From a bacterium (GTDB lineage: Bacteria; Patescibacteriota; Minisyncoccia; UBA6257; UBA9933): a stretch of 64,000 nt of DNA. Within the stretch, counting starts at the first letter, position 1. Each line of letters starts with the position of its first letter. The notes beneath the pieces were generated by a model, which worked only from the letters and a program-made list of their open reading frames with translations, made no database searches and had not been told where the DNA came from. The DNA lies in contig JAJYNK010000009.1 of assembly GCA_021786355.1 (NCBI GenBank), positions 517-64,516 of the forward strand, given 5' to 3'. This document shows, piece by piece, positions 5,031-49,856 of the stretch. A program made the position numbers and the translations under genes.

Positions 5031-5534
5031 TTAATCCTTAAACTTGTTTAAAAACCGTTCCTCGTCATAAATTCCCCATTTATAAAGCCGGTACAACGAT
5101 TTGTGCCTATCGGAAACATCCGGATCGCTACCGATTTTTTCAAGCCAATTAACGAATTGAGTCCCTTTATATCCATGTAATTTCTTATAAAATAGAGGAA
5201 TTATTATGTCTTTTAATTGATCAAATTCTCGCACTATTAAAGTAGCCCTTCTTCCGCGTTTTACTCCATCTCCTTGCCATGATTTATGATTATAAATTTT
5301 ATTTCTCAGACCTAACTTTTCCTTAACTAATCTAATAAGTTTCTCGTCTCTTTCGTGCATTGCCAGCACAAATGCCGGTTGTTTTTGCTTTCTCCCATCA
5401 CTTTTTTTATATCCTGGAGTAAATGAGAAACATCCCTCTCCATCAATAAGCCCTCTTATATAATCAAAGGTTAATGGATTTGTTTCAAATTGTTTCGCGG
5501 CCAACATTGGCACCATATTTTTATATTGTATCAC
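5031..5534 (-). CDS. LAGLIDADG homing endonuclease (single-motif, homodimer type)
   Basis: YIRGLIDGEGCFSF is a canonical LAGLIDADG motif. At 167 aa it is free-standing. Confidence 0.8.
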   Translation of the reverse strand: MIQYKNMVPMLAAKQFETNPLTFDYIRGLIDGEGCFSFTPGYKKSDGRKQKQPAFVLAMHERDEKLIRLVKEKLGLRNKIYNHKSWQGDGVKRGRRATLIVREFDQLKDIIIPLFYKKLHGYKGTQFVNWLEKIGSDPDVSDRHKSLYRLYKWGIYDEERFLNKFKD

Positions 5535-13223: not shown

Positions 13224-14186
13224 TTGTTCAGCAAATTAACTAATCAACTAATTAACCAGACTGCAACACGCATGGCTGATATAAATAAACTACTTAAAAA
13301 CTATCTCGACTATCTTGAGATAGAGAAAGGCAGAACCAAAGAAACGCGGGAGAATTACGAACATTACTTAAAAACGTTTTTTGAATTTGCCAGAATAAAA
13401 TCCGAAAGCGATATCAACGCTGACAACGTAAGAGATTTTAGAATCTATCTGGCGCGGCTCCATAATCTTCGAGATGGTGAAAATTTTAAGCGCACAACTC
13501 AAAGCTATTATATAATAGCGCTTAGAAACTTTTTGAAATTTTTGGCGAAAAACGACTATAAAGTTTTGGCTTCGGAAAAAATCGAGCTTCCCAGGATCCC
13601 AAAACAACAAATAGACATAATGGAATACTCGGATTTGGAGCGGCTTATGGCGGCGCCCAAAACAACCGATTTAAAAGGGCTGCGCGACAAGGCGATTTTG
13701 GAAGTTTTGTTTTCAACCGGACTTCGAGTGTCGGAATTGTGCGCTTTAAACCGATATTTTGACTTGAATAGGGGAGAAATTTCCGTACGCGGTAAAGGCG
13801 GGAAAATACGAGTGGTATTTTTAGCCGACTCCGCTAAAAAAGCCATTAAAAATTATCTGGATAAACGAACCGACGCCGAAGAAGCTTTATTTGTGAGCTT
13901 AACCAAAGCAAAAAATCCAAAAGTGCTTGGAAGAATTATTCCTCGCACAGTCCAACGCTTGATAGATTTTTATGGAAGAAAGGCAGGCATCTCACAAAAA
14001 ATCCATCCGCATTTAATCCGACACAGCTTTGCCACTGATTTATTAATAGGCGGAGCGGATTTAAGGTCAGTACAGGAACTTTTAGGCCACAGCAATATCT
14101 CCACAACCCAGATTTATACGCACTTGACCAATAAAGAGCTTAAAGAAATACATAAAACTTTTCACGGGAGACGCAGGAGCGAGTAG
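13224..14186 (+). CDS. Tyrosine site-specific recombinase, XerC/XerD-like (true start possibly MADINK at 13272)
   Basis: Catalytic signatures LIRHSFATDLL (HxxR) and LGHSNISTTQIYTHL (Tyr) plus an N-terminal SAM-like core-binding domain. Confidence 0.85.
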   Translation: MFSKLTNQLINQTATRMADINKLLKNYLDYLEIEKGRTKETRENYEHYLKTFFEFARIKSESDINADNVRDFRIYLARLHNLRDGENFKRTTQSYYIIALRNFLKFLAKNDYKVLASEKIELPRIPKQQIDIMEYSDLERLMAAPKTTDLKGLRDKAILEVLFSTGLRVSELCALNRYFDLNRGEISVRGKGGKIRVVFLADSAKKAIKNYLDKRTDAEEALFVSLTKAKNPKVLGRIIPRTVQRLIDFYGRKAGISQKIHPHLIRHSFATDLLIGGADLRSVQELLGHSNISTTQIYTHLTNKELKEIHKTFHGRRRSE

Positions 14187-14324: not shown

Positions 14325-14486
14325 CTCTTCCCCCGTAATTTTTCGTTCATAAATAAACATGAAAAATTACTCCTCCAGAGCCGGGGTTTTAAAAAAGCAA
14401 AGCAGTTTGCTTTTTTAAATACCCTTCTCCTCCCTTGTGATGTAAAAACTATAAATCCCTTTGAAATCAAAGGGATTTATAGTTTG

Positions 14487-14568
14487 TGTCCTCGGTGGGA
14501 GTCGAACCCACAACCCTTACGGGATAGCGTCCTAAGCGCTACGCGTATTCCATTTCCGCCACGAGGAC
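14487..14568 (-). tRNA. tRNA-Leu (anticodon UAG), long variable arm
   Basis: Reverse complement folds as acceptor GTCCTCG/CGAGGAC, anticodon stem TAGCG/CGCTA with loop CTTAGGA, variable arm TCCCGTAAGGGTT, T arm GTGGG-TTCGACT-CCCAC. Confidence 0.8.
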
Positions 14569-14952: not shown

Positions 14953-15669
14953 ATGGCAGAAGAAAAGAAAGCTGATTTCAGCGCCGGAGAAGTTGGAAAA
15001 GAGCTCGGGATAACGGCAGGAGGTATTGCTGTTTTTGAACTCCTCAGAAAAGCCTGGGGGCTTATGAAGGTGGGGTCAAGAACCGCTGCCGCTGAAGTCA
15101 TTCGCGAAGTCGGGAGCAAGGCGGCCGCGGAAACGGCCAAAAAAGTGCAGGCGAAGATGAGCGATCATTACCGCGCCAAACTTCTTGTTTTTCTACAGAA
15201 GATGGAGTCTTCAACGGAACCGAGGCAGCAGAGCGCGGCAAAAACCATCAGAAAGAGGCAAGAGGACCGACAGTTTTGCCGGCCCCGGTCTTATTCTGAC
15301 GGCGGAAATTATCGACCCGGCGAAGAAAACCTTCTCGTGAATTGCCTCGGAAAAGTTCTAATACTCAAAGAACCTGAGAAAGAAGTAGCGGCAGAGGCGG
15401 CGGCGACAGAAAAAGAAACCATCAATTTCTTCGTCTGGCTCGGCGAACTCCCGCCTCAAGAATTCGACAGCGCGATTGAGTTTCTCAACCATGACATAGT
15501 TATGCAGTGGTTAAGAATGCTCGGCATTCGTTTCAACGAAATATTCGGTATCGTCGGTTCAGAACTACGTCCTTTCAACGATAAATGGGTTAAGTGGCTC
15601 AACAATCGCCGCACAGCACGCGGTCGGAGGACTGTAGAATATCAAAAGGAGGGCCCTCCTCATGCGTGA
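14953..15669 (+). CDS. Hypothetical protein (238 aa) in a higher-GC island
   Basis: GC visibly higher than the backbone. The stop overlaps the next start (ATGCGTGA), which suggests translational coupling. Confidence 0.5.
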   Translation: MAEEKKADFSAGEVGKELGITAGGIAVFELLRKAWGLMKVGSRTAAAEVIREVGSKAAAETAKKVQAKMSDHYRAKLLVFLQKMESSTEPRQQSAAKTIRKRQEDRQFCRPRSYSDGGNYRPGEENLLVNCLGKVLILKEPEKEVAAEAAATEKETINFFVWLGELPPQEFDSAIEFLNHDIVMQWLRMLGIRFNEIFGIVGSELRPFNDKWVKWLNNRRTARGRRTVEYQKEGPPHA

Positions 15670-16612
15670 AACTCTTAGTGAAATACTCCTAACGCTGCGG
15701 CTCATTCTCGACACAGTCATCACCGGCGCCGCGGACGCCGCCGAGGTCCTTGCCTTTGTCAGGGGCGAAAACAGAACCGATCTTGAAATATATCGGATCG
15801 GACTTTCACGGCTCGCGATTGCAGCGGCGCTTCTGCCTATACCAATCCTGCTTCTGGGAATTTTCGGATTCTCGATGTGGATTTCAATTGCGGGACTTAT
15901 TTGGGCGTTCTTCACGATCTTACTCTCTTTGCTGGCCGCGCCGATTGCGTTGATAATCGACGCGGTCTGGCACAGAACAACAGTAGGACTTGGAGAACGT
16001 TATGTTCGATTAACGCTACATGTTATTTTCGCCGAGTTATCGTTCGCAATAATGCTTATAGTCATTCCTATCGAGAAAAGACCTGAGTTGATCCCGTTGC
16101 TACTGCTCTTGGCCCTTATCATTTTTATTGGGACTCGTCTTTTTGGGGGCGCTTTCATCTTTAACGGAAGGGCAATAACGGTTGTTGCATCAATGATTTT
16201 CATCGCAATCGTCATTTCGTTGTTTCTCCCCCGCACAACGGCTCTCGCGAGAACCGCGGCGAGAGGAATCGATAATAATGTCGTTGCAGTATTTTCCTTA
16301 AATTCTCCTACGAAACCAACGGAAATAGGAACCAACCAGAAAATCCTCGTTGGGATGGAATTCCCGATCAAGCCAGGGGAGGATAATTATCTCTTCGCAA
16401 CTTCGGTCAAGGGAAAACGAACCGAGTACAAGTTGGAGGCCAACCAGCCCATCATCATTCGCTCAGCCCAACCCGACGGTTCTTTAAGGGATTTTCGACT
16501 GGGACCCGGAAGGTTTGGCTGGGAGGTTTTAAGAGATCAACAGGCTGGGCAGCTTCGGGTGCGAAGCGAACAGCCTGCGGTTCTCCGAATTATTGACGTG
16601 AACGAAAGTTGA
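15662..16612 (+). CDS. Polytopic membrane protein (about 6 TM helices) with a C-terminal soluble domain, in a higher-GC island
   Basis: Long hydrophobic stretches (LLLGIFGFSMWISIAGLIWAFFTILLSLLAAPIALII, LLLLLALIIFIGTRLFGGAFIF, VVASMIFIAIVISLF) followed by a 110-aa hydrophilic tail. Confidence 0.5.
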   Translation: MRETLSEILLTLRLILDTVITGAADAAEVLAFVRGENRTDLEIYRIGLSRLAIAAALLPIPILLLGIFGFSMWISIAGLIWAFFTILLSLLAAPIALIIDAVWHRTTVGLGERYVRLTLHVIFAELSFAIMLIVIPIEKRPELIPLLLLLALIIFIGTRLFGGAFIFNGRAITVVASMIFIAIVISLFLPRTTALARTAARGIDNNVVAVFSLNSPTKPTEIGTNQKILVGMEFPIKPGEDNYLFATSVKGKRTEYKLEANQPIIIRSAQPDGSLRDFRLGPGRFGWEVLRDQQAGQLRVRSEQPAVLRIIDVNES

Positions 16613-16618
16613 TCTTTG

Positions 16619-16738
16619 CCCCGTTAGAGAAAAGTCGCCGCGAGCGACTGAAGTCGTGCTCTTAGCACGGCGTTCTCTAATGGGGTTTGCCCCGTTAGAA
16701 GTAGGACGCGTACGATGCGTCCGCGACTTCTAACGGTG
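16619..16738. repeat. Two tandem hairpin repeats of family B: CCCCGTTAGAGA...TCTCTAATGGGG (16619-16685) and CCCCGTTAGAAGT...ACTTCTAACGGTG (16690-16738)
   Basis: Each arm pair is complementary apart from single G-T and C-T mismatches. The inner parts hold small hairpins. Confidence 0.75.
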
Positions 16739-16742
16739 TTTG

Positions 16743-16793
16743 CCCCACTTGTACTTCAGCGCAAGAGCGCTGAAGTACAAGTGGGATTTTTTT
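16743..16793 (+). terminator. Terminator in the same hairpin style: CCCCACTTGTACTTCAGCGC-AAGA-GCGCTGAAGTACAAGTGGG followed by T7
   Basis: A 19-20-bp perfect stem plus a T-run ending the island. Confidence 0.8.
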
Positions 16794-17029
16794 ATTTATT
16801 ACAGTTTCATACGAATTATAAATACACACGGATTGGTGCGTATAAAAAAATAAAATAGTTTGCAAAATTAATTCGGAAATAAATTTTTAGTGGTATAGTA
16901 TACTATACCACTTAACCGTTTTATATCGCATATAAAAATTATTTATTGTAAGAATATTGATTATAGGAAAAATAATAAAAAACACCCCAGTAAATCGGAG
17001 TGTTTTTTTAAATCACTAAATAAATAAAT

Positions 17030-17413
17030 TTATAAGTTTCCGGCAATTCCTCTTATTGCTGCGACTAGCCCTTTAGCAAGCAAGCCAACCGCGACAGATA
17101 CAAGAGCCCAGAGTATATGATTTCTTGCCGCTTTGGTTTTTGCTTCATCTCCGCCGGAAGTTAAAAACTGAAACGCTCCCCAAACAATAAAAACAACCGC
17201 CAAGGCAATTAATAATCCCAATAAATAATTAGCCACTGTATCTAGCGTATCGTACACATTAGAAAGGCCGGTTATGGGGATATTTCCGGGTTGTCCTTGG
17301 CCTGGCGGAGTAAATATCGCGGCAAACGAAAATACCGGCAACGCGAGCGATAAAATCGCTCCTGAATAAATAATACTTTGTAAAACTTTTTTCATTTTTT
17401 TGTATCGTATCAA
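17030..17413 (-). CDS. VirB2/TrbC-like pilin-family protein A (signal peptide, then two hydrophobic helices joined by TSGGD)
   Basis: YLLGLLIALAVVFIVWGAFQFLTSGGDEAKTKAARNHILWALVSVAVGLLAKGLV is the characteristic two-helix hairpin. Confidence 0.5.
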   Translation of the reverse strand: MIRYKKMKKVLQSIIYSGAILSLALPVFSFAAIFTPPGQGQPGNIPITGLSNVYDTLDTVANYLLGLLIALAVVFIVWGAFQFLTSGGDEAKTKAARNHILWALVSVAVGLLAKGLVAAIRGIAGNL

Positions 17414-17442
17414 TTCGACCTCGACCTTTTTCTTTATATTTA

Positions 17443-17853
17443 TTATAACGTTTGTATTATTCCGTACAACGCGCCGATGATTCCTCGCGCGAGTAAAATT
17501 ACTAATAATCCGATTGCGGCGTATAAAACTGTTTTTTGGCCTTCCTGGAATTTTTTAGGGTCGCCTGACGCGGTCATCATTTTCCAAGCGCCGTAGATAA
17601 CTATTATCACAGCCACAGAAACCGAAACGCCGATAAAATAATCGATTATTTTGGAAAGGACGCTATCAAGAGTCGAGCCGGATCCAAAATAATTAAAAAG
17701 CTGGCCGCTCCCGCCGCTAGCAGAAGGACTTGCTCCAGTTGGCTGACCGCCGCTTGTTGTCGGCTGACCTCCGCTTGTTTCGGCTAATTGATAAAAAGCA
17801 AACAAAGGCGCGACTTTAAGCCAATTCAAAATTTTTTTAATGTTTTTTCTCAT
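17443..17853 (-). CDS. VirB2/TrbC-like pilin-family protein B, with a low-complexity TSGGQPTTSGGQPT repeat
   Basis: DYFIGVSVSVAVIIVIYGAWKMMTASGDPKKFQEGQKTVLYAAIGLLVILLARGII has the same architecture as A and C. An imperfect 21-bp tandem repeat in the DNA encodes SGGQPT twice. Confidence 0.5.
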   Translation of the reverse strand: MRKNIKKILNWLKVAPLFAFYQLAETSGGQPTTSGGQPTGASPSASGGSGQLFNYFGSGSTLDSVLSKIIDYFIGVSVSVAVIIVIYGAWKMMTASGDPKKFQEGQKTVLYAAIGLLVILLARGIIGALYGIIQTL

Positions 17854-17994
17854 CCCAGTACTACAACTTCGATTATTTTTGTGTTAATTCTCGAGGTTGT
17901 GATTTATTGATTATTCTTATTTTTATTACCCAATATCAACTTAATTCAGGTTCTCAAAAATTTATAGAGAATGTATCGAAGTTGTAGTACTGGG
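17854..17994. repeat. 20-bp perfect inverted repeat CCCAGTACTACAACTTCGAT (17854-17873) / ATCGAAGTTGTAGTACTGGG (17975-17994) flanking a 101-bp AT-rich segment. The left arm abuts the ATG of pilin gene B.
   Basis: Arms verified base by base. The start codon of B (reverse complement of CAT 17851-17853) is immediately adjacent. Confidence 0.85.
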
Positions 17995-18026
17995 CATTTT
18001 TAAAATTATAAAAAATTTTTAACTGC

Positions 18027-18377
18027 TTAGCAAGGAAATTTATTCCATGGACCTAAACTGCCGCCGACAAGAACTTTCAAAACCAAATCAACTATGAACC
18101 CGGCTAAAAGAAGAATGGCTATGCCGATTAAGATAGTTCTTATTTTTCCAACCGCTTCTTTGTACTTTCCGGGATCTCCGGCAGAAGTCATTATTTTAAA
18201 CCCCGCCCAAACCAAAGCGCCGAGCGCCAAAACAAACGCGAAAACAATGACAAAATTATAAATATTTTGAGCTAACTGGAATAAATCGCAAATAGTACAT
18301 TCGAGCTTAGCCGTTCCCGGACCGCACTGAACTAAAGGGGTCAAAGCCGCATTGGCAATATTAACTAAATTAATCAT
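18027..18377 (-). CDS. VirB2/TrbC-like pilin-family protein C
   Basis: FVIVFAFVLALGALVWAGFKIMTSAGDPGKYKEAVGKIRTILIGIAILLLAGFIV. Confidence 0.5.
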   Translation of the reverse strand: MINLVNIANAALTPLVQCGPGTAKLECTICDLFQLAQNIYNFVIVFAFVLALGALVWAGFKIMTSAGDPGKYKEAVGKIRTILIGIAILLLAGFIVDLVLKVLVGGSLGPWNKFPC

Positions 18378-18388
18378 GGTTTTTCGTT

Positions 18389-18442
18389 GTCATCCCGAGC
18401 GTGGCGAGGGATCTCGAGATTCTTCGCTTCGCTCTGAATGAC
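18389..18442. repeat. Repeated 5'-UTR element D copy 1 (GTCATCCCGAG...AGGGATCTCGAGATTCTTCGCTTCGCTCTGAATGAC)
   Basis: A near-identical copy at 33201-33262 overlaps the holB start codon. Short terminal inverted ends GTCAT/ATGAC. Confidence 0.75.
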
Positions 18443-18476
18443 TCTTTGTTGTTGGTTGTAGGTTGTTAGTTATTGG

Positions 18477-19760
18477 TTATTTAAATAAATTATTTATCTG
18501 CGCGCCGGCTTGGTCAAGCGCTTGCTGGGAATTTGTTTTTCCGTTCAATACTGATTCGACCGCGTTTGAAAAAATCTGACTGGTTTGGTCGGGGTCCGGC
18601 TGATACCAGGAATCAGCAGAAAGTGCTTGGTTTGCGAAAACATTCAAATCCGGATCATTTTGATATTGCTTGATTAAAATTTTTAAAGCCGGCGGGCGTT
18701 TTGTCGCCTGAAGATATGTAAGAGAATTTTGCGGGTCGGTTGTCAGATATTTTATAAAATCCCAGGCAAGATCGGAGTTTAAACTTTTAGAAGAAACCGC
18801 CAGACCCCAATAAGCGGCGTAATTTTTAGGATTCGAAGAATCGACTTGCGGCATAGAAGCAACCGTAAAATTCAAAAGCGGATTTTTTTGTTTGAGATAC
18901 GAAATCTGATTAGCATAACCGAAAATCATCGCGGCCTGCCCCTGACTAAATAAATCAAATGAATTGCCCAGATTCTGATTCCAAACATAGTTACTGCTGG
19001 CTGGCTTGGCAAAACCTGTATAAAAATCAAATGCGTTAGTTGCTTTGCCACTAAAATCGGCTCGCATAAAGGATGGGTCGACCATCAAAGAACCGTATTG
19101 AATCATTAGCGTATTTAAAATATCGGTTCCGTTTACAATATTTTTATCAGAGCTGCCGATAGCGGCGCCTGCTTGAAAAATCTGGCCGTTGGCTTGTTTT
19201 TTTGTAAGCCGTGTCGCCAAATTCGTAAAATCACTCCAATTATCGGGCGGAAAAACAACGGCATTGGCATTAAAAATATCTTTGTTGTAAAAAAGAGCGA
19301 GCGAGTCGAGGTAAAGCGGCGAACCATAAACTCTGCCCTGATAAGTAAAATCTTTTTCAACAACCTGCGGAAAAAGTTGGCGAATATTTGCCAAAGAAAT
19401 TTGAGCGTCAGCGGCTGGCATTAGAAGATCGCCTTGCTTTAAAAGCCAGGAGTTATGGAACATCAAAATATCCGGACCCTGATTTTTCGCCATCGCTCGA
19501 ACAAATTCATTTTCAAAATCCGCTTCGGGAATTTGTTGGTATTGAATTTGAACTTTGCGGTCGTAAAGCTTGCTATAGTTGTCTATAGTGGCCTGAAAAG
19601 CGGAAACATTATCAACTCCCCAGAAAACCAGTTTTCCCGACACGGAAGTTTTGGAGCAATTTTTGGTTATAGGGATAACGCAAAAAATACTTAAGACAAC
19701 TAAAATAAGAACAATTATTCCGACCCCGAATAAAACTATTTTTGAGCGATTATTATACAC
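18477..19760 (-). CDS. Extracellular solute-binding protein (ABC-type family 1, sugar-binding-like) with an N-terminal membrane anchor; no adjacent permease or ATPase
   Basis: About 427 aa with an N-terminal TM segment and typical SBP length and composition (..WGVDNVSAFQATIDNYSKLY..). Confidence 0.65.
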   Translation of the reverse strand: MYNNRSKIVLFGVGIIVLILVVLSIFCVIPITKNCSKTSVSGKLVFWGVDNVSAFQATIDNYSKLYDRKVQIQYQQIPEADFENEFVRAMAKNQGPDILMFHNSWLLKQGDLLMPAADAQISLANIRQLFPQVVEKDFTYQGRVYGSPLYLDSLALFYNKDIFNANAVVFPPDNWSDFTNLATRLTKKQANGQIFQAGAAIGSSDKNIVNGTDILNTLMIQYGSLMVDPSFMRADFSGKATNAFDFYTGFAKPASSNYVWNQNLGNSFDLFSQGQAAMIFGYANQISYLKQKNPLLNFTVASMPQVDSSNPKNYAAYWGLAVSSKSLNSDLAWDFIKYLTTDPQNSLTYLQATKRPPALKILIKQYQNDPDLNVFANQALSADSWYQPDPDQTSQIFSNAVESVLNGKTNSQQALDQAGAQINNLFK

Positions 19761-19770
19761 GAGTTAATTT

Positions 19771-22257
19771 TTATAGCGTAACCGCGCCAGCCAATTTGTC
19801 TCCTCCTTTTAACGTCATTATTTTTACTCCGGAGGTGGCGCGTCCCGCAGTCCGCACGCTTTTCAAGGTCGTTTTAATAATTTGTCCTTTTGTCGAAAGC
19901 GCCAAAAGCTCGGCTTCTTCAAAAATCACTTGCGCGCTGACTATTCTCCCAGTCTTGGAATTAATCTTAGCGGTTTTTATCCCTTGGCCGCTTCGCTTTT
20001 GAACTTTGTATTGCCCAAGTGAAGTTTGTTTGGCAAAACCATTTTCCGTAACAACCAAAACTTTCAGCTTGGAAAGTTTTTCCTTCGACTCTGTATTTAT
20101 TATATCAAGTCCAACGACAAAATCATCCTTTCTTAATTTTATCGCTTTAACGCCGGTGGCAATTCTCGACATCGCCCGAAGCTGGCTTTCTTTGAATCTT
20201 ATCGATTGTCCCAGAGCGGTTACGATTAAAACTTCGTCTTTGCCCGAAGACGATTTAACCCAATGAAGCACGTCGCCTTTCTGCAAATTAATACCGATGA
20301 TTCCGGTGCGTCTGATATTGGTAAAATCCTCAAGCGGAGTTTTTTTAATGACTCCATATTTAGTAGCCATTACCAAAAATTGTCCTTCCTGGCCTTTGCT
20401 TTTAGCGGGATAACTGACTATGGCGCTGACTTTTTCTTCGGGCGGAATTTCCAAAAAGTTTTGGATGACTTTGCCTTTGGCTTGCCGCGACGCCGCTGGG
20501 ATTTCATAAACCTTCGTTTGAAACACTCTTCCTTTTTCCGTAAAAAACAAAATATTGTCGTGGCTATTGGCCGCGATAAAATGCGAAATTAAATCCTCTT
20601 CTCCGACTTCAGAACCAATCAGACCTTTGCCGCCTCTTTGCTGGCTTCTAAAAACATCGGGATTTCCTCTTTTTATGTAGCCGTTTTGGGAAAGAGTGAT
20701 AACAACTTCTTCTTCGGTGATCAAATCTTCTTCTTTAAATTCCGTGAGGCCGCCTGCGACAATTTTAGTGCGCCTTTCGTCGCCGTAATTTTTTTTGATT
20801 TCCGAAAGTTCGTCTTTTATGACTTTTAAAATTTTCTGCGGACTATGTAAAAGAGCTTCCAATTCGCTTATTAACTTTTTCTTTTCTTTAAGCTCATCTT
20901 CTATTTTCTGCCTTTCCAGCGCCGCCAAAGTCGAAAGTTTCATTTCTAAAATCGCTTCGGCTTGAATTTCGGTAAGCTTGAAACGGGAAACCAAATTTTT
21001 GCGCGCTTCTTCTTTATCCTTTGATTTCTTAATCGTCTCGATGACTTTATCTATAACCGAAAGCGCTTTCGCAAGACCCTCTAAAATATGCGCCCGCTCT
21101 TTGGCTTTGCGAAGTTCAAACTCGGCTCTTCGGCGAACAACTTCTTTTCTGTGTTCGATATACTGGGCTAAAAATTCTTTCAGCGAAAGAAGCTGGGGCT
21201 GAAGTCCGCCAACCAAAGCGATTGTGTTCAAATTAAAATTCTTTTGAAGGTCCGTGTGCTTATAAAGCTGGTTTAATATTTTTTGCGCGGGCACATCGTT
21301 TTTAAGCTCAACGACAATTCTTAGTCCGTCGCGATCGCTTTCGTCGCGCAAATCTTTTATGCCTTGAATTTTTTTGTCGGTAACAAGGCCGGCCATTTTT
21401 ATCAGAAGCTCGGACTTGTTAACTTGATAGGGGATTTCGGTGATTATTATATTGAAATTATCCTTTTTTCTTTCTTCAATTTCCGCCACCGCCCTAACTG
21501 GTATGGAACCGCGGCCGGTAGAATACGCCTCGGCTATGGATTTTTTATCGTAAATAATGCCGCCGGTCGGAAAATCAGGACCTTGAACAAACTTCAGCAA
21601 GTCCTCGGTTGTGGCTTTGGGCGAATCAATCAAATGAAGAGTAGCGTCAATAACTTCGGAAAGATTGTGCGGGGGAATGCTGGTCGCCATACCTACCGCG
21701 ATACCCGAAGAACCGTTTAAAAGAAGGTGGGGGAGCTTAGAGGGAAGCACCGACGGTTCTTTTGTGGTGCCGTCATAATTGTCCAGCCAATTAACCGTAT
21801 CCTTTTCTATATCAATAAGAAGCTCTTCGGCTATTTTTGATAAACGGCACTCAGTGTATCTGTAAGCAGCCGCTGAATCTCCGTCCTGGCTGCCGAAATT
21901 GCCTTGGCCGTCAATTAAAGGATAACGAAGAGAAAAGTCCTGGGCCATTCTAACCAACGCGTCGTACACGGAAATATCGCCGTGCGGGTGATAGCTTTTT
22001 AACGTATCTCCGATAACCGAGGCGGATTTCCTATATTTGGCGCTCGCTCTTAGTCCGCTTTCCCACATTGCCCAAAGAATTCTTCGCTGAACCGGCTTTA
22101 AGCCGTCTCTGACATCCGGCAAAGCTCGCGAAACAATAACCGACATCGCGTAATCAAGATATGACTCTTGAAGCTCGTCGGATATTTCTCGCTTTTCAAT
22201 TCCTGAGCCGACGCGAGAACTGCTTTGATTATTTTCCGGTAATTTATCTTTTTTCAT
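19771..22257 (-). CDS. gyrA: DNA gyrase subunit A
   Basis: Contains [14 protein letters not shown] and the active-site region [11 protein letters not shown]. The C-terminal GyrA box QRGGKG is present. Confidence 0.9.
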
Positions 22258-22267
22258 ACGCTTTGCT

Positions 22268-22576
22268 TTACTGATTTTGTATATTTATAATTCTTTCGCC
22301 GCCGATTTTTGGTATTTTTGAATATAAATCGGAAGTTAATTCGCTAAATTTATATTTAATTGATTGGCCGATAACTGCCGCGCCGTTTTTAAAAACCGGC
22401 CAAAACGAAGTTTCGCGAGTTTCGTCCGCTTTGGAAGTCCCCACTTCTTTAATATAGGAACTCATATACCAAATCCAAAAAAAAATAACAATAATCATTG
22501 AAACCGCGCTTAAAAAAATAATCGCTTTTTTCTTTTTTTCTTCATTGGAATGCCTTATTTTACTTAACCAACTCAT
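22268..22576 (-). CDS. Small membrane protein (hypothetical)
   Basis: One TM segment ([21 protein letters not shown]). No recognisable family. Confidence 0.35.
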
Positions 22577-22585
22577 AAATCATTG

Positions 22586-23212
22586 CTAAATCGTCAATAC
22601 TACGACTTTTGTAGGCTTAATTTCCTCGATGTCTTTTTTCTTTATAACCAGCTTGTCCGTTTTTTCAACTTTCGCGGTATCTATTTCTTCCAAAAACTTT
22701 TTAATGTCGTCCGCCTTCCTTTTTAATCCGGGAACCTTATAAAAGGCGGGGATAACTATTTTCGGCTGAATCTGCTTTATCAATTTAACTGCGGTTTTTT
22801 GATCCAAAAACGGCTCGCCTCCCGCAGGCACAACCAAAATATCGATTCCGTTTAACCCTTCCATTATTTCCGGGGAAAGCGCTTGGGAAATATGCCCCAA
22901 AAAACAAAAATTTATCCCTTCCATTTCTGCCCAATAAATGGTTTTTAAAAATTTTTCAGATGATTCTTCCGCGACAAAAAAACCCTTAACGTTTACGCCG
23001 TTAAAATCATATTCTCCGGCTCCTAAAACTTCCGCGGCAGCTTCCTTGTCGGAATTATAAGACAAAGGAAAGGCGGTTAAAGTTTTTAAAACCGCGTCGT
23101 ATTTAAAACGCGGAGCTGTCAAACCGCTAGAGGACTCAATCGGATCTATTAAAATAACTTGGTCGCCGGATTGCAATTTTAAGCATCCTTCGCCGTAATA
23201 AGAAATAACCAT
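22586..23212 (-). CDS. MBL-fold (Lactamase_B_3-like) metal-dependent hydrolase family protein
   Basis: About 200 aa. The N-terminal pattern MVISYYGEGCLKLQSGDQVILIDP is typical of this family. Confidence 0.5.
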   Translation of the reverse strand: MVISYYGEGCLKLQSGDQVILIDPIESSSGLTAPRFKYDAVLKTLTAFPLSYNSDKEAAAEVLGAGEYDFNGVNVKGFFVAEESSEKFLKTIYWAEMEGINFCFLGHISQALSPEIMEGLNGIDILVVPAGGEPFLDQKTAVKLIKQIQPKIVIPAFYKVPGLKRKADDIKKFLEEIDTAKVEKTDKLVIKKKDIEEIKPTKVVVLTI

Positions 23213-33205: not shown

Positions 33206-33262
33206 CCCGAGTCGCCTTAGGCAACGAGGGATCTCTCGATTCTTCGCTACGCTCAGAATGAC
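33201..33262. repeat. Repeated 5'-UTR element D copy 2. Its end (GGGATGAC) supplies the holB ATG.
   Basis: Shares GTCATCCCGAG and AGGGATCTC..GATTCTTCGCT.CGCTC.GAATGAC with copy 1 at 18389. Confidence 0.75.
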
Positions 33263-41773: not shown

Positions 41774-41967
41774 ACGCGGGCGACCATGATTTTCACTACT
41801 CGCGCGCGCCTCGCTAAGCTCGGCACGGCTGCGTTCTAAAACCCTGCGGTTTTAGTATTTCCGCAACGGGAAAACGAGTTTTCCCGACCCCTTTCTTGGC
41901 GGTTCAAATCCGCGATTCACATCAGAAAAATAAAACAACAGTTTCGACTGTTGTTTTATTTTTCTTG

Positions 41968-42041
41968 CGCGGGCGACCGGATTTGAACCGGCGACCTCTG
42001 CCGTGACAGGGCAGCGCTCTACCAGACTAAGCTACGCCCGC
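41968..42041 (-). tRNA. tRNA-Asp (anticodon GUC)
   Basis: Reverse complement folds as acceptor GCGGGCG/CGCCCGC, anticodon stem CTGCC/GGCAG with loop CTGTCAC, T arm GCCGG-TTCAAAT-CCGGT. The 5' end overlaps the last 15 nt of the LAGLIDADG ORF. Confidence 0.8.
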
Positions 42042-42695
42042 TTGCCGGTATATATTATATTTTCTCCTTAAATAAATCAACTTTTCTGGATTACGCTCGT
42101 ACATGAACATAAATAATTTTCCTGAGTCCCTAATAGAATAATTTAGATACCAAGAATTATCGCTTTTTTTAAAAAGTGATCCTGTAAGATTTATCGAATC
42201 CGATAAGGCCTTTTTTAACTCCTTGATAAAAACTTCGCTTCCTGAAGTAAACCGGCTAAGAAGTACTCGCGATTTGTTTTTTCGATCCGCTTTTTTAAAA
42301 AACCCGAATGAAACATTTCCGCCTCCATCAAAATAACCTCGCACAAAGTGGCAAAAATATTTACTTGGGACGCGTGGTAATTTTATTGTTTTGCTTTTTG
42401 CCGGAGTAAGACCTAATTTTATTAAGTCACAAAACATGGCCTTACTCCCTATTTGCAATCTATAAACGGTCTTGTGCTTTTTATCTCTTTGAATAATCGA
42501 AATTTTATGGTTTGATTCAAGAGTTTTTTGAATTTCTCTTAATAAATCCGCGTCTGTAATTTGAAACTCTATAAAATGCGCGCCTCTTTTGTTTTTAAGC
42601 ATATTCCCATCCGCCGTGAAAAACCCCAAAATATACGCCATTTCCGGAGTCCATTTTTTGAAAAAATTTTCGTTTTTTGTTTTATAAATCGGCAT
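42027..42695 (-). CDS. LAGLIDADG homing endonuclease (two-motif, monomeric type)
   Basis: Motifs AYILGFFTADGN and HFVRGYFDGGGNVSF. Confidence 0.8.
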   Translation of the reverse strand: MPIYKTKNENFFKKWTPEMAYILGFFTADGNMLKNKRGAHFIEFQITDADLLREIQKTLESNHKISIIQRDKKHKTVYRLQIGSKAMFCDLIKLGLTPAKSKTIKLPRVPSKYFCHFVRGYFDGGGNVSFGFFKKADRKNKSRVLLSRFTSGSEVFIKELKKALSDSINLTGSLFKKSDNSWYLNYSIRDSGKLFMFMYERNPEKLIYLRRKYNIYRQAGVA

Positions 42696-42729: not shown

Positions 42730-43563
42730 TTACTTCGGTTTTATAACTATAAATCTTTTCTTCCACCCTTTTTTAAATTCCTCTGTTGTGGCTTTTCTCT
42801 CAATAAGATTTGGATTGTTTATGTCGGGATCGGCGAATAAAACAATGTCGCCGTCTATCCCAAAAATAACCACCAAATGTCCGCCGTTTTGCGGATTTAG
42901 ATTCTTATATATGGAAGCTATGACCGGCCCGTTTTTTAACTCTTCAATCATTCGTTCAAAAGCGGTTTCCGTTTCTTCTTTCGCGAAATCAAATCTATTG
43001 CCCCTTAAACCAAAGTGTTTTACTGCGGCGTCTATTAATCCTTGATGCAGCCACCCTATGTTTTCTACATAAGCTTTGTTTTTGACCCCGTCGGAAATTA
43101 TAAAGTCAACTAAAAATTCGGAAAGTTTTTTCATCTTATCTTCGTCTACGTTTTTTGTCGGCCAAGCTCTTTCCAAGTGGTATAGTATACTATACCACTT
43201 GACTGAGTCGTGTTCGTCTAATAATTCGTTGAGTTTGTTTGTTTCGTTGCTTATCCAGTTTGCGTCATTTACGCTAGAAATAATCTTTGAATCTTTTAAA
43301 AGTTTTTTAATCGCTTTAACTACGTTTGGATCTTTTTTTGAAACACAATAAATCACAATCATCGCCAAAGAAGCGGGACCGCAGACTCTTTTTGCCCAAA
43401 ATTCGTTGCAGCCGTCGCCTTCGCAAAGCCCCTGTCCGTCCGGCAGGCGGGCATACCCGCTTTTGCCGATATCCAAATGCTGAGAAATGTTAACCGGAAG
43501 ATGGTGGCGAATTAAGAATTTTTTTTCCCGTCTTTTGTCCTGTTTTTTATTTATCGTATTCAT
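42730..43563 (-). CDS. Papain-like cysteine peptidase, C39-like family (Peptidase_C39_2-like)
   Basis: Cys box RVCGPASLAMIVIY and a C-terminal GGHLVVIFGIDGDIVLFADPD His/Asp region. The CDS contains a 26-bp perfect palindrome encoding KWYSILYHL. Confidence 0.5.
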   Translation of the reverse strand: MNTINKKQDKRREKKFLIRHHLPVNISQHLDIGKSGYARLPDGQGLCEGDGCNEFWAKRVCGPASLAMIVIYCVSKKDPNVVKAIKKLLKDSKIISSVNDANWISNETNKLNELLDEHDSVKWYSILYHLERAWPTKNVDEDKMKKLSEFLVDFIISDGVKNKAYVENIGWLHQGLIDAAVKHFGLRGNRFDFAKEETETAFERMIEELKNGPVIASIYKNLNPQNGGHLVVIFGIDGDIVLFADPDINNPNLIERKATTEEFKKGWKKRFIVIKPK

Positions 43564-48497: not shown

Positions 48498-49856
48498 ATG
48501 GATCACGAACAAGTTTGGAAACAGGTTTTAGCAGAGGTTGAAATTCAATTATCCAAGCCCAATTTTGTTACGTGGTTTAAAAACAGCCGCTTAATTGAAA
48601 AAAACGACGACGGTCGAGTCATTGTCGGGCTCGGAAATAATTTCGCCAAGGAATGGGTTGAGAATAAATACCATAAATTGCTTAGCGACATTTTTTATTC
48701 ACTTGATTCGTCGGTAAAAAAGGTGGAATACGCTGTTTTGACATTGCCTGCCGAACAAAGACCGCAACCTTATAGCCGAGCGCCCGCGGTTTCAAGCCAA
48801 CCGGCGCTTATAGAGGTAAGAATCGATCCGGAAACGAATCTTCATCCTCGTTATAATTTTAAATCTTTTATTGTTGGGTCTTCAAATGAACTTGCTTACG
48901 CCGCTGCGATGGGGGTTGTTAAAGAGGTTGGATCAAAATATAATCCTCTTTTTATTTACGGGGGCACGGGACTTGGTAAGACCCATCTTCTTCAAGCGAT
49001 CGGCAATGAAATTAAATTTAATTACAAAGAGCGGCTTAAAACAAAATATGTTCCTTCGGAAAAATTCGTAAACGATATTATTTCGGGAATTCGTAATAAA
49101 AGGATGGAGGATATAAAAGACAAATATCGAAGCGTCGACGTTTTAATTATTGACGACATCCAATTTATCGCCGGCAAAGAAAGAAGTGAGGAAGAATTTT
49201 TCCACACTTTTAATGTTTTATACGATAGCGGCAAACAAATAATAATCTCGTCAGATAGACCGCCAGCGGCAACACCAATTTTAGAAGAGCGCCTAAGATC
49301 TCGTTTTAGCGGGGGAATGATCGCGGATATTGGTTTTCCGGATTATGAAATGAGGGTGGCCATAATAAAATCCAAAATTCGAGAAAAAGGAATGGGCCTG
49401 GAAGATGCTTTATGCTCCTTAATAGCCTCTAAAATACAAAGAAATATAAGGGAATTGGAAGGGGTTTTGAATAAGATCGTTTTTTACCAAGAAGCTAAAA
49501 ATATAGAGCCGAGCCATGAATTAATTAATGAAATAATAGAAAAAAACATCAAACAAACATTTAAAAACGTTTCTCCGACTCAAATAATAAAAGCGGTTTC
49601 CGGTTTTTTTGAAATTACTGAAAAAGAAATTTCCGACCACTCGCGCCGAAAAGAATTAGTGGAGCCAAGACAGATTGCGATGTATTTATTGAAAGATATT
49701 TTGGGGATGTCCTATTCTGATATTGGGAATAAGTTGGGGAAAAGAGACCACTCAACGGTTATTCACGCGTGCGAAAAGGTCTCAAAAAAGATTAATAATG
49801 ACCAGAAATTAAACCAAAAAATTATTTTAGTTAGAGAAATCATCGAGAAGAATTAA
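48498..49856 (+). CDS. dnaA: Chromosomal replication initiator protein DnaA
   Basis: AAA+ Walker A GGTGLGKTHLLQAIGNE, DnaA signature and a C-terminal HTH (..IAMYLLKDILGMSYSDIGNKLGKRDHSTVIHA). Confidence 0.95.
   Translation: MDHEQVWKQVLAEVEIQLSKPNFVTWFKNSRLIEKNDDGRVIVGLGNNFAKEWVENKYHKLLSDIFYSLDSSVKKVEYAVLTLPAEQRPQPYSRAPAVSSQPALIEVRIDPETNLHPRYNFKSFIVGSSNELAYAAAMGVVKEVGSKYNPLFIYGGTGLGKTHLLQAIGNEIKFNYKERLKTKYVPSEKFVNDIISGIRNKRMEDIKDKYRSVDVLIIDDIQFIAGKERSEEEFFHTFNVLYDSGKQIIISSDRPPAATPILEERLRSRFSGGMIADIGFPDYEMRVAIIKSKIREKGMGLEDALCSLIASKIQRNIRELEGVLNKIVFYQEAKNIEPSHELINEIIEKNIKQTFKNVSPTQIIKAVSGFFEITEKEISDHSRRKELVEPRQIAMYLLKDILGMSYSDIGNKLGKRDHSTVIHACEKVSKKINNDQKLNQKIILVREIIEKN

What the first reader, a model, noticed from the sequence alone, without database searches (positions are those of the whole stretch)
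17030..19760. Cluster of three VirB2/TrbC-like two-helix pilin-family genes downstream of an anchored orphan solute-binding protein and gyrA
Three consecutive minus-strand genes of 116-136 aa share one pattern: a signal peptide, a variable segment, then a hydrophobic helix, the loop (T/M)(S/T)(A/S)GD, and a second hydrophobic helix ending GI..A..G. This is the topology of type IV secretion/conjugative pilins. The N-terminal segments are hypervariable and one carries an SGGQPT tandem repeat. No VirB4 or VirB6 partners occur in the window, so this is not an obvious conjugation module. It may be a surface-filament or cell-cell attachment system, or a bacteriocin-like membrane peptide set. The solute-binding protein directly upstream has no permease or ATPase nearby.
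Basis: partly seen in the sequence, partly recalled or inferred. Interest (0 to 1): 0.6.

Follow-up and report, generated by a model that had tools for sequence, protein, structure and literature searches.

The report
T4SS-type pilin trio with binding protein
Three small genes of an ultra-small Patescibacteria (Wolfebacteria-like) bacterium encode VirB2-like secretion-system pilins, an array type already described for this phylum; the new point is that across a whole class they form one conserved gene block with an orphan sugar-binding protein, which may be an unrecognised partner of the pilus.

Summary
Three minus-strand genes (17030-17395/17413, 17443-17853, 18027-18377) all score above Pfam's cut-off for PF18895 T4SS_pilin. 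Two also score just below cut-off for TrbC/VirB2. Each has two strongly hydrophobic helices joined by a short, net-positive T-x-x-G-D loop. The window is core chromosome of a Wolfebacteria-like (Paceibacteria) genome, about 30 kb from dnaA. It holds no VirB4, VirB6 or PrgI. Divergent VirB2-like pilin arrays in Patescibacteria are already published (Wang 2023; Quinonero-Coronel 2025), so the array is a new member of a known kind. What I found no description of is the link to the binding protein. In 77 of 80 related loci (78 evaluable) from different Paceibacteria species, the membrane-anchored MalE-type solute-binding protein is followed directly by such pilin genes. The usual order is Cys-type, repeat-type, then pilin-1-type. 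No ABC permease or T4SS core gene lies within 8 kb. Most likely these are T4SS pilus subunits assembled by a VirB4 machine encoded elsewhere, with the binding protein as a co-expressed surface partner. VirB4 in this species could not be checked. In passing: the spacer before pilin 2 is a MITE-like palindrome sitting exactly on the start codon, as do 14 of 15 further copies.

The parts
18477..19760 (-). Membrane-anchored family-1 (MalE-type) solute-binding protein, 427 aa, GTG start 10 nt after the gyrA stop. It is the first gene of the conserved binding-protein/pilin block.
   Evidence: PF01547 SBP_bac_1 at 92.6 bits. Nearest solved relatives are oligosaccharide/maltose-binding proteins: 4r9f at E 1.2e-17 and T. 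maritima MalE1/2. N-terminal 19-residue hydrophobic anchor with KD 3.3. Followed by pilin genes in 77 of 80 related loci.
18389..18442 (.). REP-like imperfect palindrome in the 99-nt spacer between the binding protein and pilin 3. The spacer is only 5 nt in the sister species.
   Evidence: Inverted repeat I2. A second copy lies at 33238-33260. L011 has a 5-nt gap at this position.
18027..18377 (-). Pilin 3, 116 aa. Cys-type T4SS_pilin (A|ALTPLVQCGPG..C..C ... PWNKFPC at the C-terminus), with no real signal peptide. This type is usually the first pilin after the binding protein.
   Evidence: PF18895 at 40.3 bits and TrbC at 24.4 bits. AF2 helices 29-63 and 69-104. The same Cys subtype occurs in distant members P0031 and P0049. 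First position in most arrays.
17854..17994 (.). 141-nt MITE-like palindromic element with perfect 20-nt terminal inverted repeats (CCCAGTACTACAACTTCGAT). It is flanked by ATG on both sides and ends at the pilin 2 start codon.
   Evidence: RNA fold -46.6 kcal/mol, z = -7.1. Absent from sister species L011. 15 further copies elsewhere, 14 of them abutting the start codon of an ORF (one, L111, lies at a contig end and could not be judged).
17443..17853 (-). Pilin 2, 136 aa. T4SS_pilin with a weak signal peptide. After the predicted cleavage site comes a disordered G/P/S/T-rich tandem-repeat segment that is hypervariable between orthologs.
   Evidence: PF18895 at 40.1 bits and TrbC at 21.9 bits. 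AF2 gives residues 20-58 disordered and helices 61-94 and 99-135. In the ortholog alignment the C-terminal 85 aa are nearly invariant and the N-terminal repeats differ.
17738..17779 (-). 21-nt tandem duplication that encodes TSGGQPT twice, inside pilin 2.
   Evidence: Direct repeat D1, 90% identical copies. Translation.
17030..17395 (-). Pilin 1, 121 aa from ATG 17395 (the longest ORF starts at TTG 17413, 127 aa). T4SS_pilin with a classical signal peptide (..PVFSFA|A).
   Evidence: PF18895 at 44.4 bits. Hydropathy. Other assemblies aa. 97.5% identical to the sister-species ortholog.
16977..17008 (-). Intrinsic-terminator-like hairpin plus T-run, 22 nt after the pilin 1 stop. Probable end of the transcription unit.
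   Evidence: 13-pair stem followed by T-rich tail.
19771..23212 (-). Conserved upstream genes on the same strand, separated by 9-10 nt gaps: a metallo-beta-lactamase-fold protein (22586-23212), a 102-aa membrane protein (22268-22576) and gyrA (19771-22257). Possibly one transcription unit with the binding protein.
   Evidence: ORF coordinates. Pfam families from the table. The same order is seen in nearly all related loci that have upstream sequence.

Best explanation
The three genes encode VirB2-like pilin subunits of the Patescibacteria type IV secretion system.

Shown:
- They are members of the T4SS_pilin family.
- They are helical-hairpin membrane proteins with a positively charged loop.
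- They sit in a conserved chromosomal block, on the leading strand about 30 kb from dnaA.
- They are three ancient, ordered paralogs, not recent duplicates.

Inferred:
- Each protein is inserted into the cell membrane with both termini outside and the positive loop inside. Insertion uses Sec and signal peptidase for pilins 1 and 2, and probably YidC-type N-tail insertion for pilin 3.
- The proteins are then extracted and polymerised into a surface filament or channel extension by a VirB4/VirB6/PrgI machine encoded elsewhere in the genome.
- The strictly conserved pilins 1 and 3 would be structural. The disordered, repeat-bearing and fast-evolving N-terminus of pilin 2 would lie on the filament surface and face the host cell or phages.
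- The membrane-anchored oligosaccharide-binding protein encoded directly upstream is co-expressed. It acts with the filament at the cell surface, for instance by binding host glycans or capturing a substrate.
- The system serves the host-dependent (epibiotic) lifestyle rather than plasmid conjugation.
For: Family membership:
- PF18895 is above the gathering score for all three genes, and TrbC is near threshold for two.
- The nearest NCBIfam model is the Mycoplasma ICE pilin-like protein NF045849, at 29-36.6 bits against a cut-off of 40.
- 148 of 150 array genes from related loci match PF18895, and 26 match TrbC.

Topology.

Link to T4SS: distant family members P0029 and P0040 lie in arrays of 3-5 pilins immediately beside VirB6(TrbL_3)-PrgI-TraC-like-VirB4 clusters. 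Their VirB4 proteins are Saccharibacteria VirB4.

Literature:
- 441 arrays of 2-11 divergent VirB2-like genes were reported in 383 Patescibacteria assemblies. Pilin genes were near virB4 in only 1135 of 1948 assemblies, and VirB4 was present in 2417 of 3035 (PMC12102498).
- The pilin array and the T4SS are essential for epibiotic growth of Southlakia epibionticum (PMC10633639; PMC12857230).
- Of five genomes that carry my binding-protein/pilin loci and are listed in Table S1 of PMC12102498, four are scored VirB4-positive.

Conserved block:
- 77 of 80 loci (SBP identity 37-88% across Wolfebacteria, Harrisonbacteria, Liptonbacteria, Colwellbacteria, Brennerbacteria) have pilins directly after the binding protein.
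- Two of the three exceptions are contig ends.
- The linkage persists where gyrA is not adjacent: L044, L062, L084.
- The order Cys-type, then pilin-2-type, then pilin-1-type is the commonest.

Conservation against the sister species: pilin 1 97.5%, pilin 3 95.5%, gyrA 93.8%, pilin 2 76.9%. In pilin 2 only the N-terminal repeat region varies.
Against: - No VirB4, VirB6, PrgI or TraC-like gene was found in the 64-kb window, in 9 kb to the left or 8.6 kb to the right of it, or within 8 kb of any of the 80 related loci. The queries were Saccharibacteria proteins, so distant homologs could be missed.
- I could not show that this species has VirB4 at all.
- Fold search of the hairpin model found nothing significant. 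An archaeal conjugation pilus (8dfu) ranked only 12th with E 1.9.
- The family profile against solved VirB2 gave E 9.3 by sequence and 16.6% hhalign probability.
- No filament has been seen for these proteins.
- Pilin 3 lacks a signal peptide.
- The role proposed for the binding protein rests on gene order alone.
Confidence: 0.6

Rival explanations
1. The three hairpin proteins are not extruded as a pilus. They stay in the membrane and form, together with the anchored binding protein, a T4SS-independent complex. This could be a channel or sensor that takes up or senses a host-derived oligosaccharide captured by the binding protein.
For: - The binding protein is an orphan everywhere. No EAA-motif permease occurs in any of 80 loci, and there is only one ABC-ATPase-like ORF. 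The window has none.
- It is almost invariably followed by the same three ordered small membrane proteins.
- No T4SS core gene lies nearby.
- Pilins 1 and 3 are under strong purifying selection, like housekeeping components.
Against: - The proteins belong to a family whose other members sit inside T4SS clusters and that is related to TrbC/VirB2.
- No energising ATPase is encoded in the block.
- No binding-protein-dependent transporter built from 2-helix subunits is known (my own knowledge).
- Most relatives checked have VirB4 elsewhere.
Confidence: 0.15
2. The array is a variation device. The interchangeable pilin paralogs are expressed alternatively to change host range or escape phages, as proposed for Bartonella and Anaplasma VirB2 paralogs. 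The inverted-repeat element upstream of pilin 2 acts as an invertible promoter switch.
For: - Paralogs are only 29-31% identical.
- The N-terminal repeat segment of pilin 2 differs in every ortholog.
- A 20-nt perfect inverted repeat flanks a 101-nt AT-rich segment holding a promoter-like site (TTGATA-18-AATAAT) that points at pilin 2.
- PMC12102498 suggests host-adaptation roles for such arrays.
Against: - The three paralog types and their order are ancient and conserved across the class.
- Pilins 1 and 3 are more conserved than gyrA.
- All 10 independent assemblies of this species show the same orientation of the element, and there are no variable sites in the block.
- The element is flanked by a direct (T)ATG duplication and recurs at start codons of unrelated housekeeping genes, which fits an insertion rather than a dedicated switch.
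Confidence: 0.12
3. The genes are the pilus module of a conjugative or integrative mobile element and serve DNA transfer.
For: - The family is related to conjugative pilins and to a Mycoplasma ICE pilin-like protein.
- A tyrosine recombinase (13224-14186) and tRNA-Leu (14486-14568) lie about 3 kb downstream, next to a GC-rich two-gene block.
Against: - The block sits between gyrA and S15/PNPase in core chromosome, and its position is conserved across many species.
- The recombinase is itself a conserved neighbour: 28 of 55 loci with downstream sequence have it.
- No relaxase, coupling protein or VirB4 is present.
- tblastn of the pilin domain against 72,556 plasmids finds nothing.
- Most Patescibacteria T4SS lack relaxases (PMC12102498).
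Confidence: 0.04
4. The genes encode secreted or membrane-active peptides (bacteriocin-like or holin-like), not pilins.
For: - They are small two-helix hydrophobic proteins with leader-like N-termini.
- A C39-like peptidase gene lies elsewhere in the window at 42730-43563.
Against: - There is no double-glycine leader, no ABC exporter or immunity gene, and no lysis or phage context.
- Pfam places all three in T4SS_pilin, not in any bacteriocin or holin family.
- Strong conservation across a class with fixed gene order is unlike bacteriocin loci.
Confidence: 0.03

Closest known systems
VirB2-like pilin arrays of Patescibacteria T4SS (Southlakia epibionticum ML1 essential pilin array; TM7x 'Sec-secreted array'; 441 arrays in Quinonero-Coronel et al. 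2025, PMC12102498; Wang et al. 2023, PMC10633639)
   Same: - Same Pfam family (PF18895).
- Tandem array of 2-11 small, mutually divergent (about 25-30% identical) two-helix pilins.
- Chromosomal location in a Patescibacteria genome, near the replication origin, with no relaxase.
   Different: - Here the array is not inside a T4SS gene cluster.
- It is preceded by an orphan MalE-type binding protein in a gyrA-SBP-pilin block that is conserved across Paceibacteria.
- The three paralogs are ancient ordered types rather than a variable set.
- The published survey was centred on virB4 neighbourhoods and does not mention binding proteins or gyrA.
Conjugative pilins VirB2 / TrbC / TraA (Pfam PF04956; solved T-pilus 8cue/8exh, F-pilus)
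   Same: - Small propilin.
- Two hydrophobic helices and a short basic loop.
- N-out/C-out membrane topology.
- Near-threshold TrbC profile hits and family-level TrbC hits.
   Different: - Below the TrbC gathering score.
- No significant match to solved VirB2 by sequence or fold.
- Monoderm host.
- No adjacent VirB3-B11 genes.
- Conserved T-x-x-G-D loop.
- One member lacks a signal peptide and carries four cysteines.
Mbov_0395 / MMCAP2_0565 pilin-like conjugal transfer protein of Mycoplasma ICEs (NCBIfam NF045849)
   Same: It is the best-scoring NCBIfam model for all three proteins (29.0, 36.6 and 30.3 bits). It comes from a monoderm MPF-FATA-type system, the class to which Patescibacteria VirB4 is related.
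   Different: Scores are below the cut-off of 40 bits. There is no ICE context here.
MalE-type family-1 solute-binding proteins of carbohydrate ABC importers
   Same: PF01547 at 92.6 bits. Full-length similarity to maltose/manno-oligosaccharide-binding proteins. Membrane tether, as in monoderms.
   Different: There is no MalF/MalG permease or MalK ATPase in the window or in 80 related loci. Its constant neighbours are pilin genes instead.
Archaeal Ced / conjugation-like pili (for example Aeropyrum pernix pilus, PDB 8dfu)
   Same: VirB2-like hairpin subunits used with a VirB4-like ATPase for import rather than export. This is a precedent for a T4SS-type filament serving uptake (my own knowledge). 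8dfu appears among the fold-search hits (rank 12).
   Different: The match is not significant (E 1.9). No Ced proteins were detected.

Membership tests
Pfam PF18895 T4SS_pilin | Profile score at or above the gathering threshold (26.6 bits) | tested here: met
   44.4, 40.1 and 40.3 bits. Precomputed PF18895 annotation appears on the same genes in public assemblies.
Pfam PF18895 T4SS_pilin | Two hydrophobic helices joined by a short loop (membrane hairpin) | tested here: met
   Hydropathy peaks of 2.2-2.9 over 19 residues, two per protein. AF2 gives two long helices.
Pfam PF18895 T4SS_pilin | N-terminal Sec signal peptide on the propilin | tested here: inconclusive
   Clear in pilin 1, weak in pilin 2 and absent in pilin 3, whose ORF cannot be extended. 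This is a heuristic reading; no dedicated predictor was available.
VirB2/TrbC conjugative pilins (PF04956) | Profile score at or above the gathering threshold (27.9 bits) | tested here: not met
   24.4 bits (pilin 3), 21.9 bits (pilin 2) and no hit for pilin 1. At family level, 26 of 150 related array genes match at E <= 1e-3, best 2.3e-9.
VirB2/TrbC conjugative pilins (PF04956) | Detectable similarity to a solved VirB2-family pilin (sequence profile or fold) | tested here: inconclusive
   Profile against PDB: VirB2 8cue at E 9.3. hhalign against VirB2: probability 16.6%, E 0.0015, with helix 1 aligned in register. Foldseek: nothing at E <= 1e-3.
VirB2/TrbC conjugative pilins (PF04956) | Encoded with VirB4 and VirB6 (and other T4SS core genes) | tested here: not met
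   None in the window, in the flanks, or within 8 kb in 80 related loci. The feature is met for distant family members in Saccharibacteria.
VirB2/TrbC conjugative pilins (PF04956) | Polymerises into an extracellular pilus | not testable with these tools
   Needs microscopy or biochemistry.
Patescibacteria VirB2-like pilin arrays (PMC12102498) | 2-11 pilin genes in tandem, or separated by one non-pilin gene | tested here: met
   Three genes in tandem with spacers of 173 and 47 nt.
Patescibacteria VirB2-like pilin arrays (PMC12102498) | High divergence between array members (mean about 25%, maximum 54% identity) | tested here: met
   29-31% identity to pilin 1.
Patescibacteria VirB2-like pilin arrays (PMC12102498) | Host genome is a Patescibacterium | tested here: met
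   The closest loci are 'Candidatus Wolfebacteria bacterium' MAGs. Housekeeping proteins are about 93% identical to GCA_024654025.1.
Patescibacteria VirB2-like pilin arrays (PMC12102498) | VirB4 present in the same genome | not testable with these tools
   Only about 82 kb of this species could be read. The homolog search with VirB4 was saturated by Saccharibacteria. Four of five related genomes are listed as VirB4-positive.
ABC-importer solute-binding protein (PF01547) | SBP_bac_1 domain | tested here: met
   92.6 bits. MalE-type relatives in the PDB.
ABC-importer solute-binding protein (PF01547) | Cognate permease and ATPase genes in the same locus | tested here: not met
   No BPD_transp or ABC_tran family among the window ORFs except an SMC-like protein. 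A regex for the EAA loop and LSGGQ found 0 permeases and 1 ATPase-like ORF in 80 loci (approximate test).
Class II bacteriocin locus | Double-glycine leader plus C39-ABC exporter and immunity gene | tested here: not met
   No GG leader in the sequences. The only C39-like protein is 24 kb away and is not an ABC fusion.
Integrative conjugative element | Relaxase, coupling protein and strain-variable insertion | tested here: not met
   No such Pfam hits. The position is conserved across species. No plasmid homologs were found.

The most novel reading that the evidence does not exclude
In Paceibacteria, the anchored MalE-type binding protein is a true functional component of the T4SS-pilin apparatus. 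It would act either as the host-glycan adhesin that these monoderm systems otherwise lack, or as the receptor that hands host-derived oligosaccharides to a pilus working as an import conduit. The gyrA-SBP-pilin block would then be a previously unrecognised 'binding-protein-coupled T4SS pilus' that may operate differently from any described T4SS.
Probability: 0.25. Interest if true: 0.75.

Novelty: new variant of a known kind. Interest (0 to 1): 0.5.

Why it matters
Patescibacteria make up a large share of bacterial diversity and live on other cells. Their T4SS and pilin arrays are essential in the one system studied genetically, yet what the system moves and how it recognises the host are unknown. 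No adhesin has been identified.

A binding protein locked to the pilin genes across a whole class gives a concrete, testable candidate for the missing recognition or substrate-capture component. It also shows that the three pilins are distinct conserved parts rather than interchangeable variants.

The array alone is ordinary for this phylum.

Tried and rejected
1. Finding VirB4 in this species.
- Walking with exact-protein look-ups reached only 8.6 kb to the right (L012) and 9 kb to the left (L101). Neither stretch holds VirB4 or pilins.
- Two look-ups near the left edge failed or hit short contigs.
- The last homolog search, with Saccharibacteria VirB4 from L019/L020, returned 8000 Saccharibacteria-like hits and nothing from Wolfebacteria.

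2. Structure as a membership test.
- The AF2 hairpins are too simple. Foldseek against the PDB gave no hit at E <= 1e-3.
- The profile against PDB sequences gave nothing significant.
- hhalign against VirB2 was weak.
- AF2 of pilin 3 could not tell whether its N- and C-terminal cysteines meet, because the termini have pLDDT below 60.

3. Inverton hypothesis for 17854-17994. All 10 assemblies have the same orientation, and the flanking direct repeats fit an insertion. It is rejected as the leading idea but not excluded.

4. Within-species hypervariability. There are no variable sites from the binding protein to pilin 1 in 10 assemblies. The contigs were selected by exact pilin 2 sequence, so this test is biased.

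5. Plasmid relatives of the pilin domain: none by tblastn.

6. Rfam: no known RNA family in 16500-18600.

8. The idea that the region from tRNA-Leu to the pilins is a genomic island carrying the pilins. It is rejected because synteny is conserved. Only the GC-rich pair at 14953-16612 is lineage-specific.

Full report
**What is there**

The window is ordinary core chromosome of a small, roughly 40% GC genome.
- It carries dnaA (48498-49856), dnaN, rnpA, DNA polymerase III alpha, ligase, gyrA, PNPase, tRNA synthetases and ribosomal proteins.
- The minimum of cumulative GC skew lies near 43-44 kb.
- On the minus strand, seven genes run head to tail: a metallo-beta-lactamase-fold protein (22586-23212), a 102-aa membrane protein (22268-22576), gyrA (19771-22257), a 427-aa solute-binding protein (18477-19760), and three small genes (18027-18377, 17443-17853, 17030-17395/17413).
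- The first four are separated by only 9-10 nt. A terminator-like hairpin follows the last gene.

**The three small genes**

- All three exceed Pfam's gathering score for PF18895 T4SS_pilin: 44.4, 40.1 and 40.3 bits against 26.6. Two are just under the threshold of PF04956 TrbC/VirB2, at 24.4 and 21.9 bits against 27.9.
- The best NCBIfam model is the Mycoplasma ICE pilin-like protein NF045849, below its cut-off.
- Each protein has two strongly hydrophobic 19-residue segments and a short, net-positive loop containing T-x-x-G-D. This predicts both termini outside and the loop inside.
- AlphaFold2 with family alignments gives a two-helix hairpin for pilin 2 and pilin 3. Helix pLDDT is 75-84. Residues 20-58 of pilin 2 are disordered.
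- The fold is too simple to discriminate. Foldseek against the PDB gives no significant hit. A family profile does not significantly find solved VirB2. hhalign against A. tumefaciens VirB2 is weak, though aligned in register (the VirB2 sequence was verified against 8cue).
- Membership of T4SS_pilin is therefore shown. Homology to classical VirB2/TrbC is supported at the family level: 26 of 150 related genes hit TrbC, best E 2.3e-9. It is not shown at the level of these individual sequences.

- Pilin 1 most likely starts at ATG 17395 (121 aa). It has a textbook signal peptide.
- Pilin 2 has a short, weak signal peptide.
- Pilin 3 has only a 10-residue leader before the conserved A|ALTPLVQCGPG, and a stop codon five codons upstream forbids a longer ORF.
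- Pilin 3 belongs to a cysteine-bearing subtype (C..C..C near the N-terminus and a C-terminal Cys). Distant members of that subtype do have signal peptides.

**Organism and population**

- The same locus occurs at 99.5-99.9% nucleotide identity in at least 10 public assemblies, for example GCA_027423115.1.
- The closest other species is a 'Candidatus Wolfebacteria' MAG, GCA_024654025.1, with about 93% amino-acid identity in housekeeping proteins and identical gene order.
- Against that species, pilin 1 is 97.5% identical and pilin 3 is 95.5%. Both are at least as conserved as gyrA (93.8%). Pilin 2 is 76.9%.
- In twelve pilin 2 orthologs the last 85 residues are almost invariant. The signal peptide and the following G/P/S/T-rich segment differ in every lineage and carry different short tandem repeats: SGGQPT x2, SGAVP x2, PGTYNSA x2, GGGV(N/D)T x2.
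- Within the species the block shows no variable site. That sample was selected by exact pilin 2 sequence, so the result is biased.

**Relation to T4SS**

- The window contains no VirB4, VirB6, PrgI or TraC-like gene. The only Walker-A ORFs are DnaA and an SMC-like protein. The 9 kb to the left and 8.6 kb to the right contain none either.
- Distant members of the same pilin family (P0029, P0040) sit in arrays of 3-5 pilins directly beside VirB6(TrbL_3)-PrgI-TraC-like-VirB4 clusters of Saccharibacteria.
- This matches the literature:
  - Wang et al. 2023 found an essential T4SS with an essential series of pilin genes in Southlakia epibionticum, with no recognizable coupling or relaxase proteins (PMC10633639).
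  - Quinonero-Coronel et al. 2025 found VirB4 in 2417 of 3035 Patescibacteria assemblies and VirB2-like genes (PF18895/PF04956) in 1948. These were near virB4 in only 1135.
  - The same study reported 441 arrays of 2-11 pilin genes averaging 25% identity (PMC12102498).
- The array as such is therefore a new member of a published kind, and its separation from virB4 is not unusual.
- Four of five genomes that carry my related loci and appear in that paper's Table S1 are VirB4-positive.
- For this species itself, VirB4 could not be checked.

**The binding protein is part of the block**

- The 427-aa protein is a family-1 binding protein (PF01547, 92.6 bits). It has an N-terminal membrane anchor, and its nearest solved relatives are maltose/oligosaccharide binders.
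- Its family is large: 1346 50%-identity cluster representatives at E <= 1e-30, nearly all full length.
- A scan of one genome per GTDB species found 359 relatives. The best 80 loci have 37-88% identity and come from Wolfebacteria, Harrisonbacteria, Liptonbacteria, Colwellbacteria, Brennerbacteria and other Paceibacteria.
- In 77 of these 80 loci the binding protein is followed at once, on the same strand, by 1-6 ORFs that match a family HMM.
- Pfam confirms 148 of 150 tested ORFs as PF18895.
- Two of the three exceptions are contig ends. In the third (L032), a type IV pilus ATPase, platform protein and prepilin follow instead.
- Three genes is the commonest array size (40 loci). The commonest order is Cys-type, then pilin-2-type, then pilin-1-type.
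- Upstream, gyrA is adjacent in nearly all loci. The binding-protein/pilin linkage persists in the three loci where gyrA is not adjacent (L044, L062, L084). The downstream genes vary.
- No locus has an EAA-loop ABC permease within 8 kb, and only one has an ABC-ATPase-like ORF (regex test, approximate). None has a T4SS core gene (queries from a different class, so sensitivity is limited).
- I found no paper that mentions this linkage.

**Interpretation**

- The best-supported reading is that these are the pilin subunits of the Patescibacteria T4SS, made from a highly conserved operon on the leading strand about 30 kb from the origin. They would be assembled by a VirB4 machine encoded elsewhere.
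- Two strictly conserved subunits would be structural. One subunit has a disordered, repeat-bearing N-terminus that would be exposed on the filament and evolves fast.
- The binding protein is most simply a co-expressed surface partner. Whether it binds host glycans, feeds an uptake route or merely shares regulation is inference from gene order.
- The main rival is that the hairpin proteins stay in the membrane and work with the binding protein independently of any T4SS. Its distinguishing test is whether complete genomes with the block always have VirB4.

**The spacer element**

- The 173-nt gap before pilin 2 is mostly a 141-nt palindrome with perfect 20-nt ends. It is flanked by ATG on both sides and ends exactly at the pilin 2 start codon.
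- The sister species has a plain 30-nt spacer, so the element is an insertion.
- A second copy lies in front of rpsP just beyond the window. A metagenome scan found 14 more copies with identical 19-nt ends.
- In 15 of 15 evaluable copies, one end abuts (0-1 nt) the ATG of a real gene of 132-845 aa. The other end is preceded by the same (T)ATG. The sixteenth copy (L111) sits at a contig end.
- Interiors fall into at least two subfamilies, with fixed orientation relative to the gene.
- In the 12 copies aligned and translated, the upstream ATG opens a short ORF beginning MPSTTTS that always stops before the gene's ATG. In three copies it stops inside the proximal arm, 8 nt upstream.
- This looks like a MITE-like element that inserts at, or survives only at, start codons. 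I did not find it described.

Noticed in passing
window 17854-17994; L012 12973-13107; L105-L117: A family of 124-151-nt palindromic elements with identical 19-20-nt terminal inverted repeats (CCCAGTACTACAACTTCGA). Each is flanked by a direct (T)ATG duplication. In 15 of 15 evaluable copies, one end sits 0-1 nt from the start codon of a real gene (pilin 2, rpsP, SMC-like, ScpB-like, pyruvate-kinase-like and others). There are at least two interior subfamilies. In the 12 copies aligned and translated, the upstream ATG opens a short MPSTTTS... ORF. No Rfam match and no literature were found. It is possibly a start-codon-targeting MITE.
   Followed up: partly
window 18389-18442 and 33238-33260: A REP-like GC-rich imperfect palindrome (GTCATTCAGAGCGAAGCGAAGAATCTCGAGATCCCTCGCCACGCTCGGGATGAC) fills the spacer between the binding protein and pilin 3. 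A related copy lies 15 kb away. It is absent from the sister species, where the gap is 5 nt.
   Followed up: partly
window 14953-16612 (+ strand): Two overlapping genes of unknown function: a 238-aa protein and a 316-aa multi-pass membrane protein, with no Pfam or NCBIfam hit. They lie in a 52% GC patch of a 40% GC genome, between tRNA-Leu/recombinase and the pilin array. They are present only in the closest relatives (L021, L022, L087). The membrane protein is only 65% identical to the sister species, against about 93% for housekeeping genes.
   Followed up: partly
window 16615-16790: A cluster of short repeats and hairpins downstream of the 316-aa gene: TTTGCCCCGTTAGA x2, TCTAA(T/C)GG(G/T)GTTTGCCCC x2, and a perfect 19-bp stem at 16744-16785 followed by a T-run. 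These may be stacked terminators or another small repeat family.
   Followed up: no
window 14446-14485: A perfect 19-bp inverted repeat (AAACTATAAATCCCTTTGA / TCAAAGGGATTTATAGTTT) lies immediately next to tRNA-Leu (14486-14568).
   Followed up: no
L032 9323-12809: This is the only evaluable related locus without T4SS-type pilins after the binding protein. It has a type IV pilus/T2SS set there instead: a GspE/PilB-like ATPase, a PilC-like platform protein and a prepilin with a class III leader. So a filament system follows the binding protein here too.
   Followed up: partly
L033 1352-2515; L035 1469-2746; L043 9416-10540; L050 6919-8124; L055 1387-2757; L041 1537-2412: In several Paceibacteria, the first pilin after the binding protein is a 290-460-aa stop-to-stop ORF. 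The PF18895 hairpin is embedded between long N- and/or C-terminal extensions that have no Pfam match. These may be pilins carrying extra surface domains.
   Followed up: partly
window 18027-18377: Pilin 3 and its orthologs have three N-terminal cysteines (C18, C27, C30) and a cysteine as the very last residue. Both termini are predicted to be outside the cell. A disulfide joining the termini would mimic the head-to-tail cyclisation of T-pilin, but the AF2 termini were too uncertain to judge.
   Followed up: partly
window 5031-5534 and 42027-42695: Two free-standing LAGLIDADG homing-endonuclease-like ORFs lie in core chromosome. The second overlaps the end of tRNA-Asp (41967-42041).
   Followed up: no
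L012 13921-15579 (about 5 kb beyond the window's right end): A T2SSE/PilB-type ATPase gene lies close to the origin region of the same species. The organism therefore also has type IV pilus machinery.
   Followed up: no
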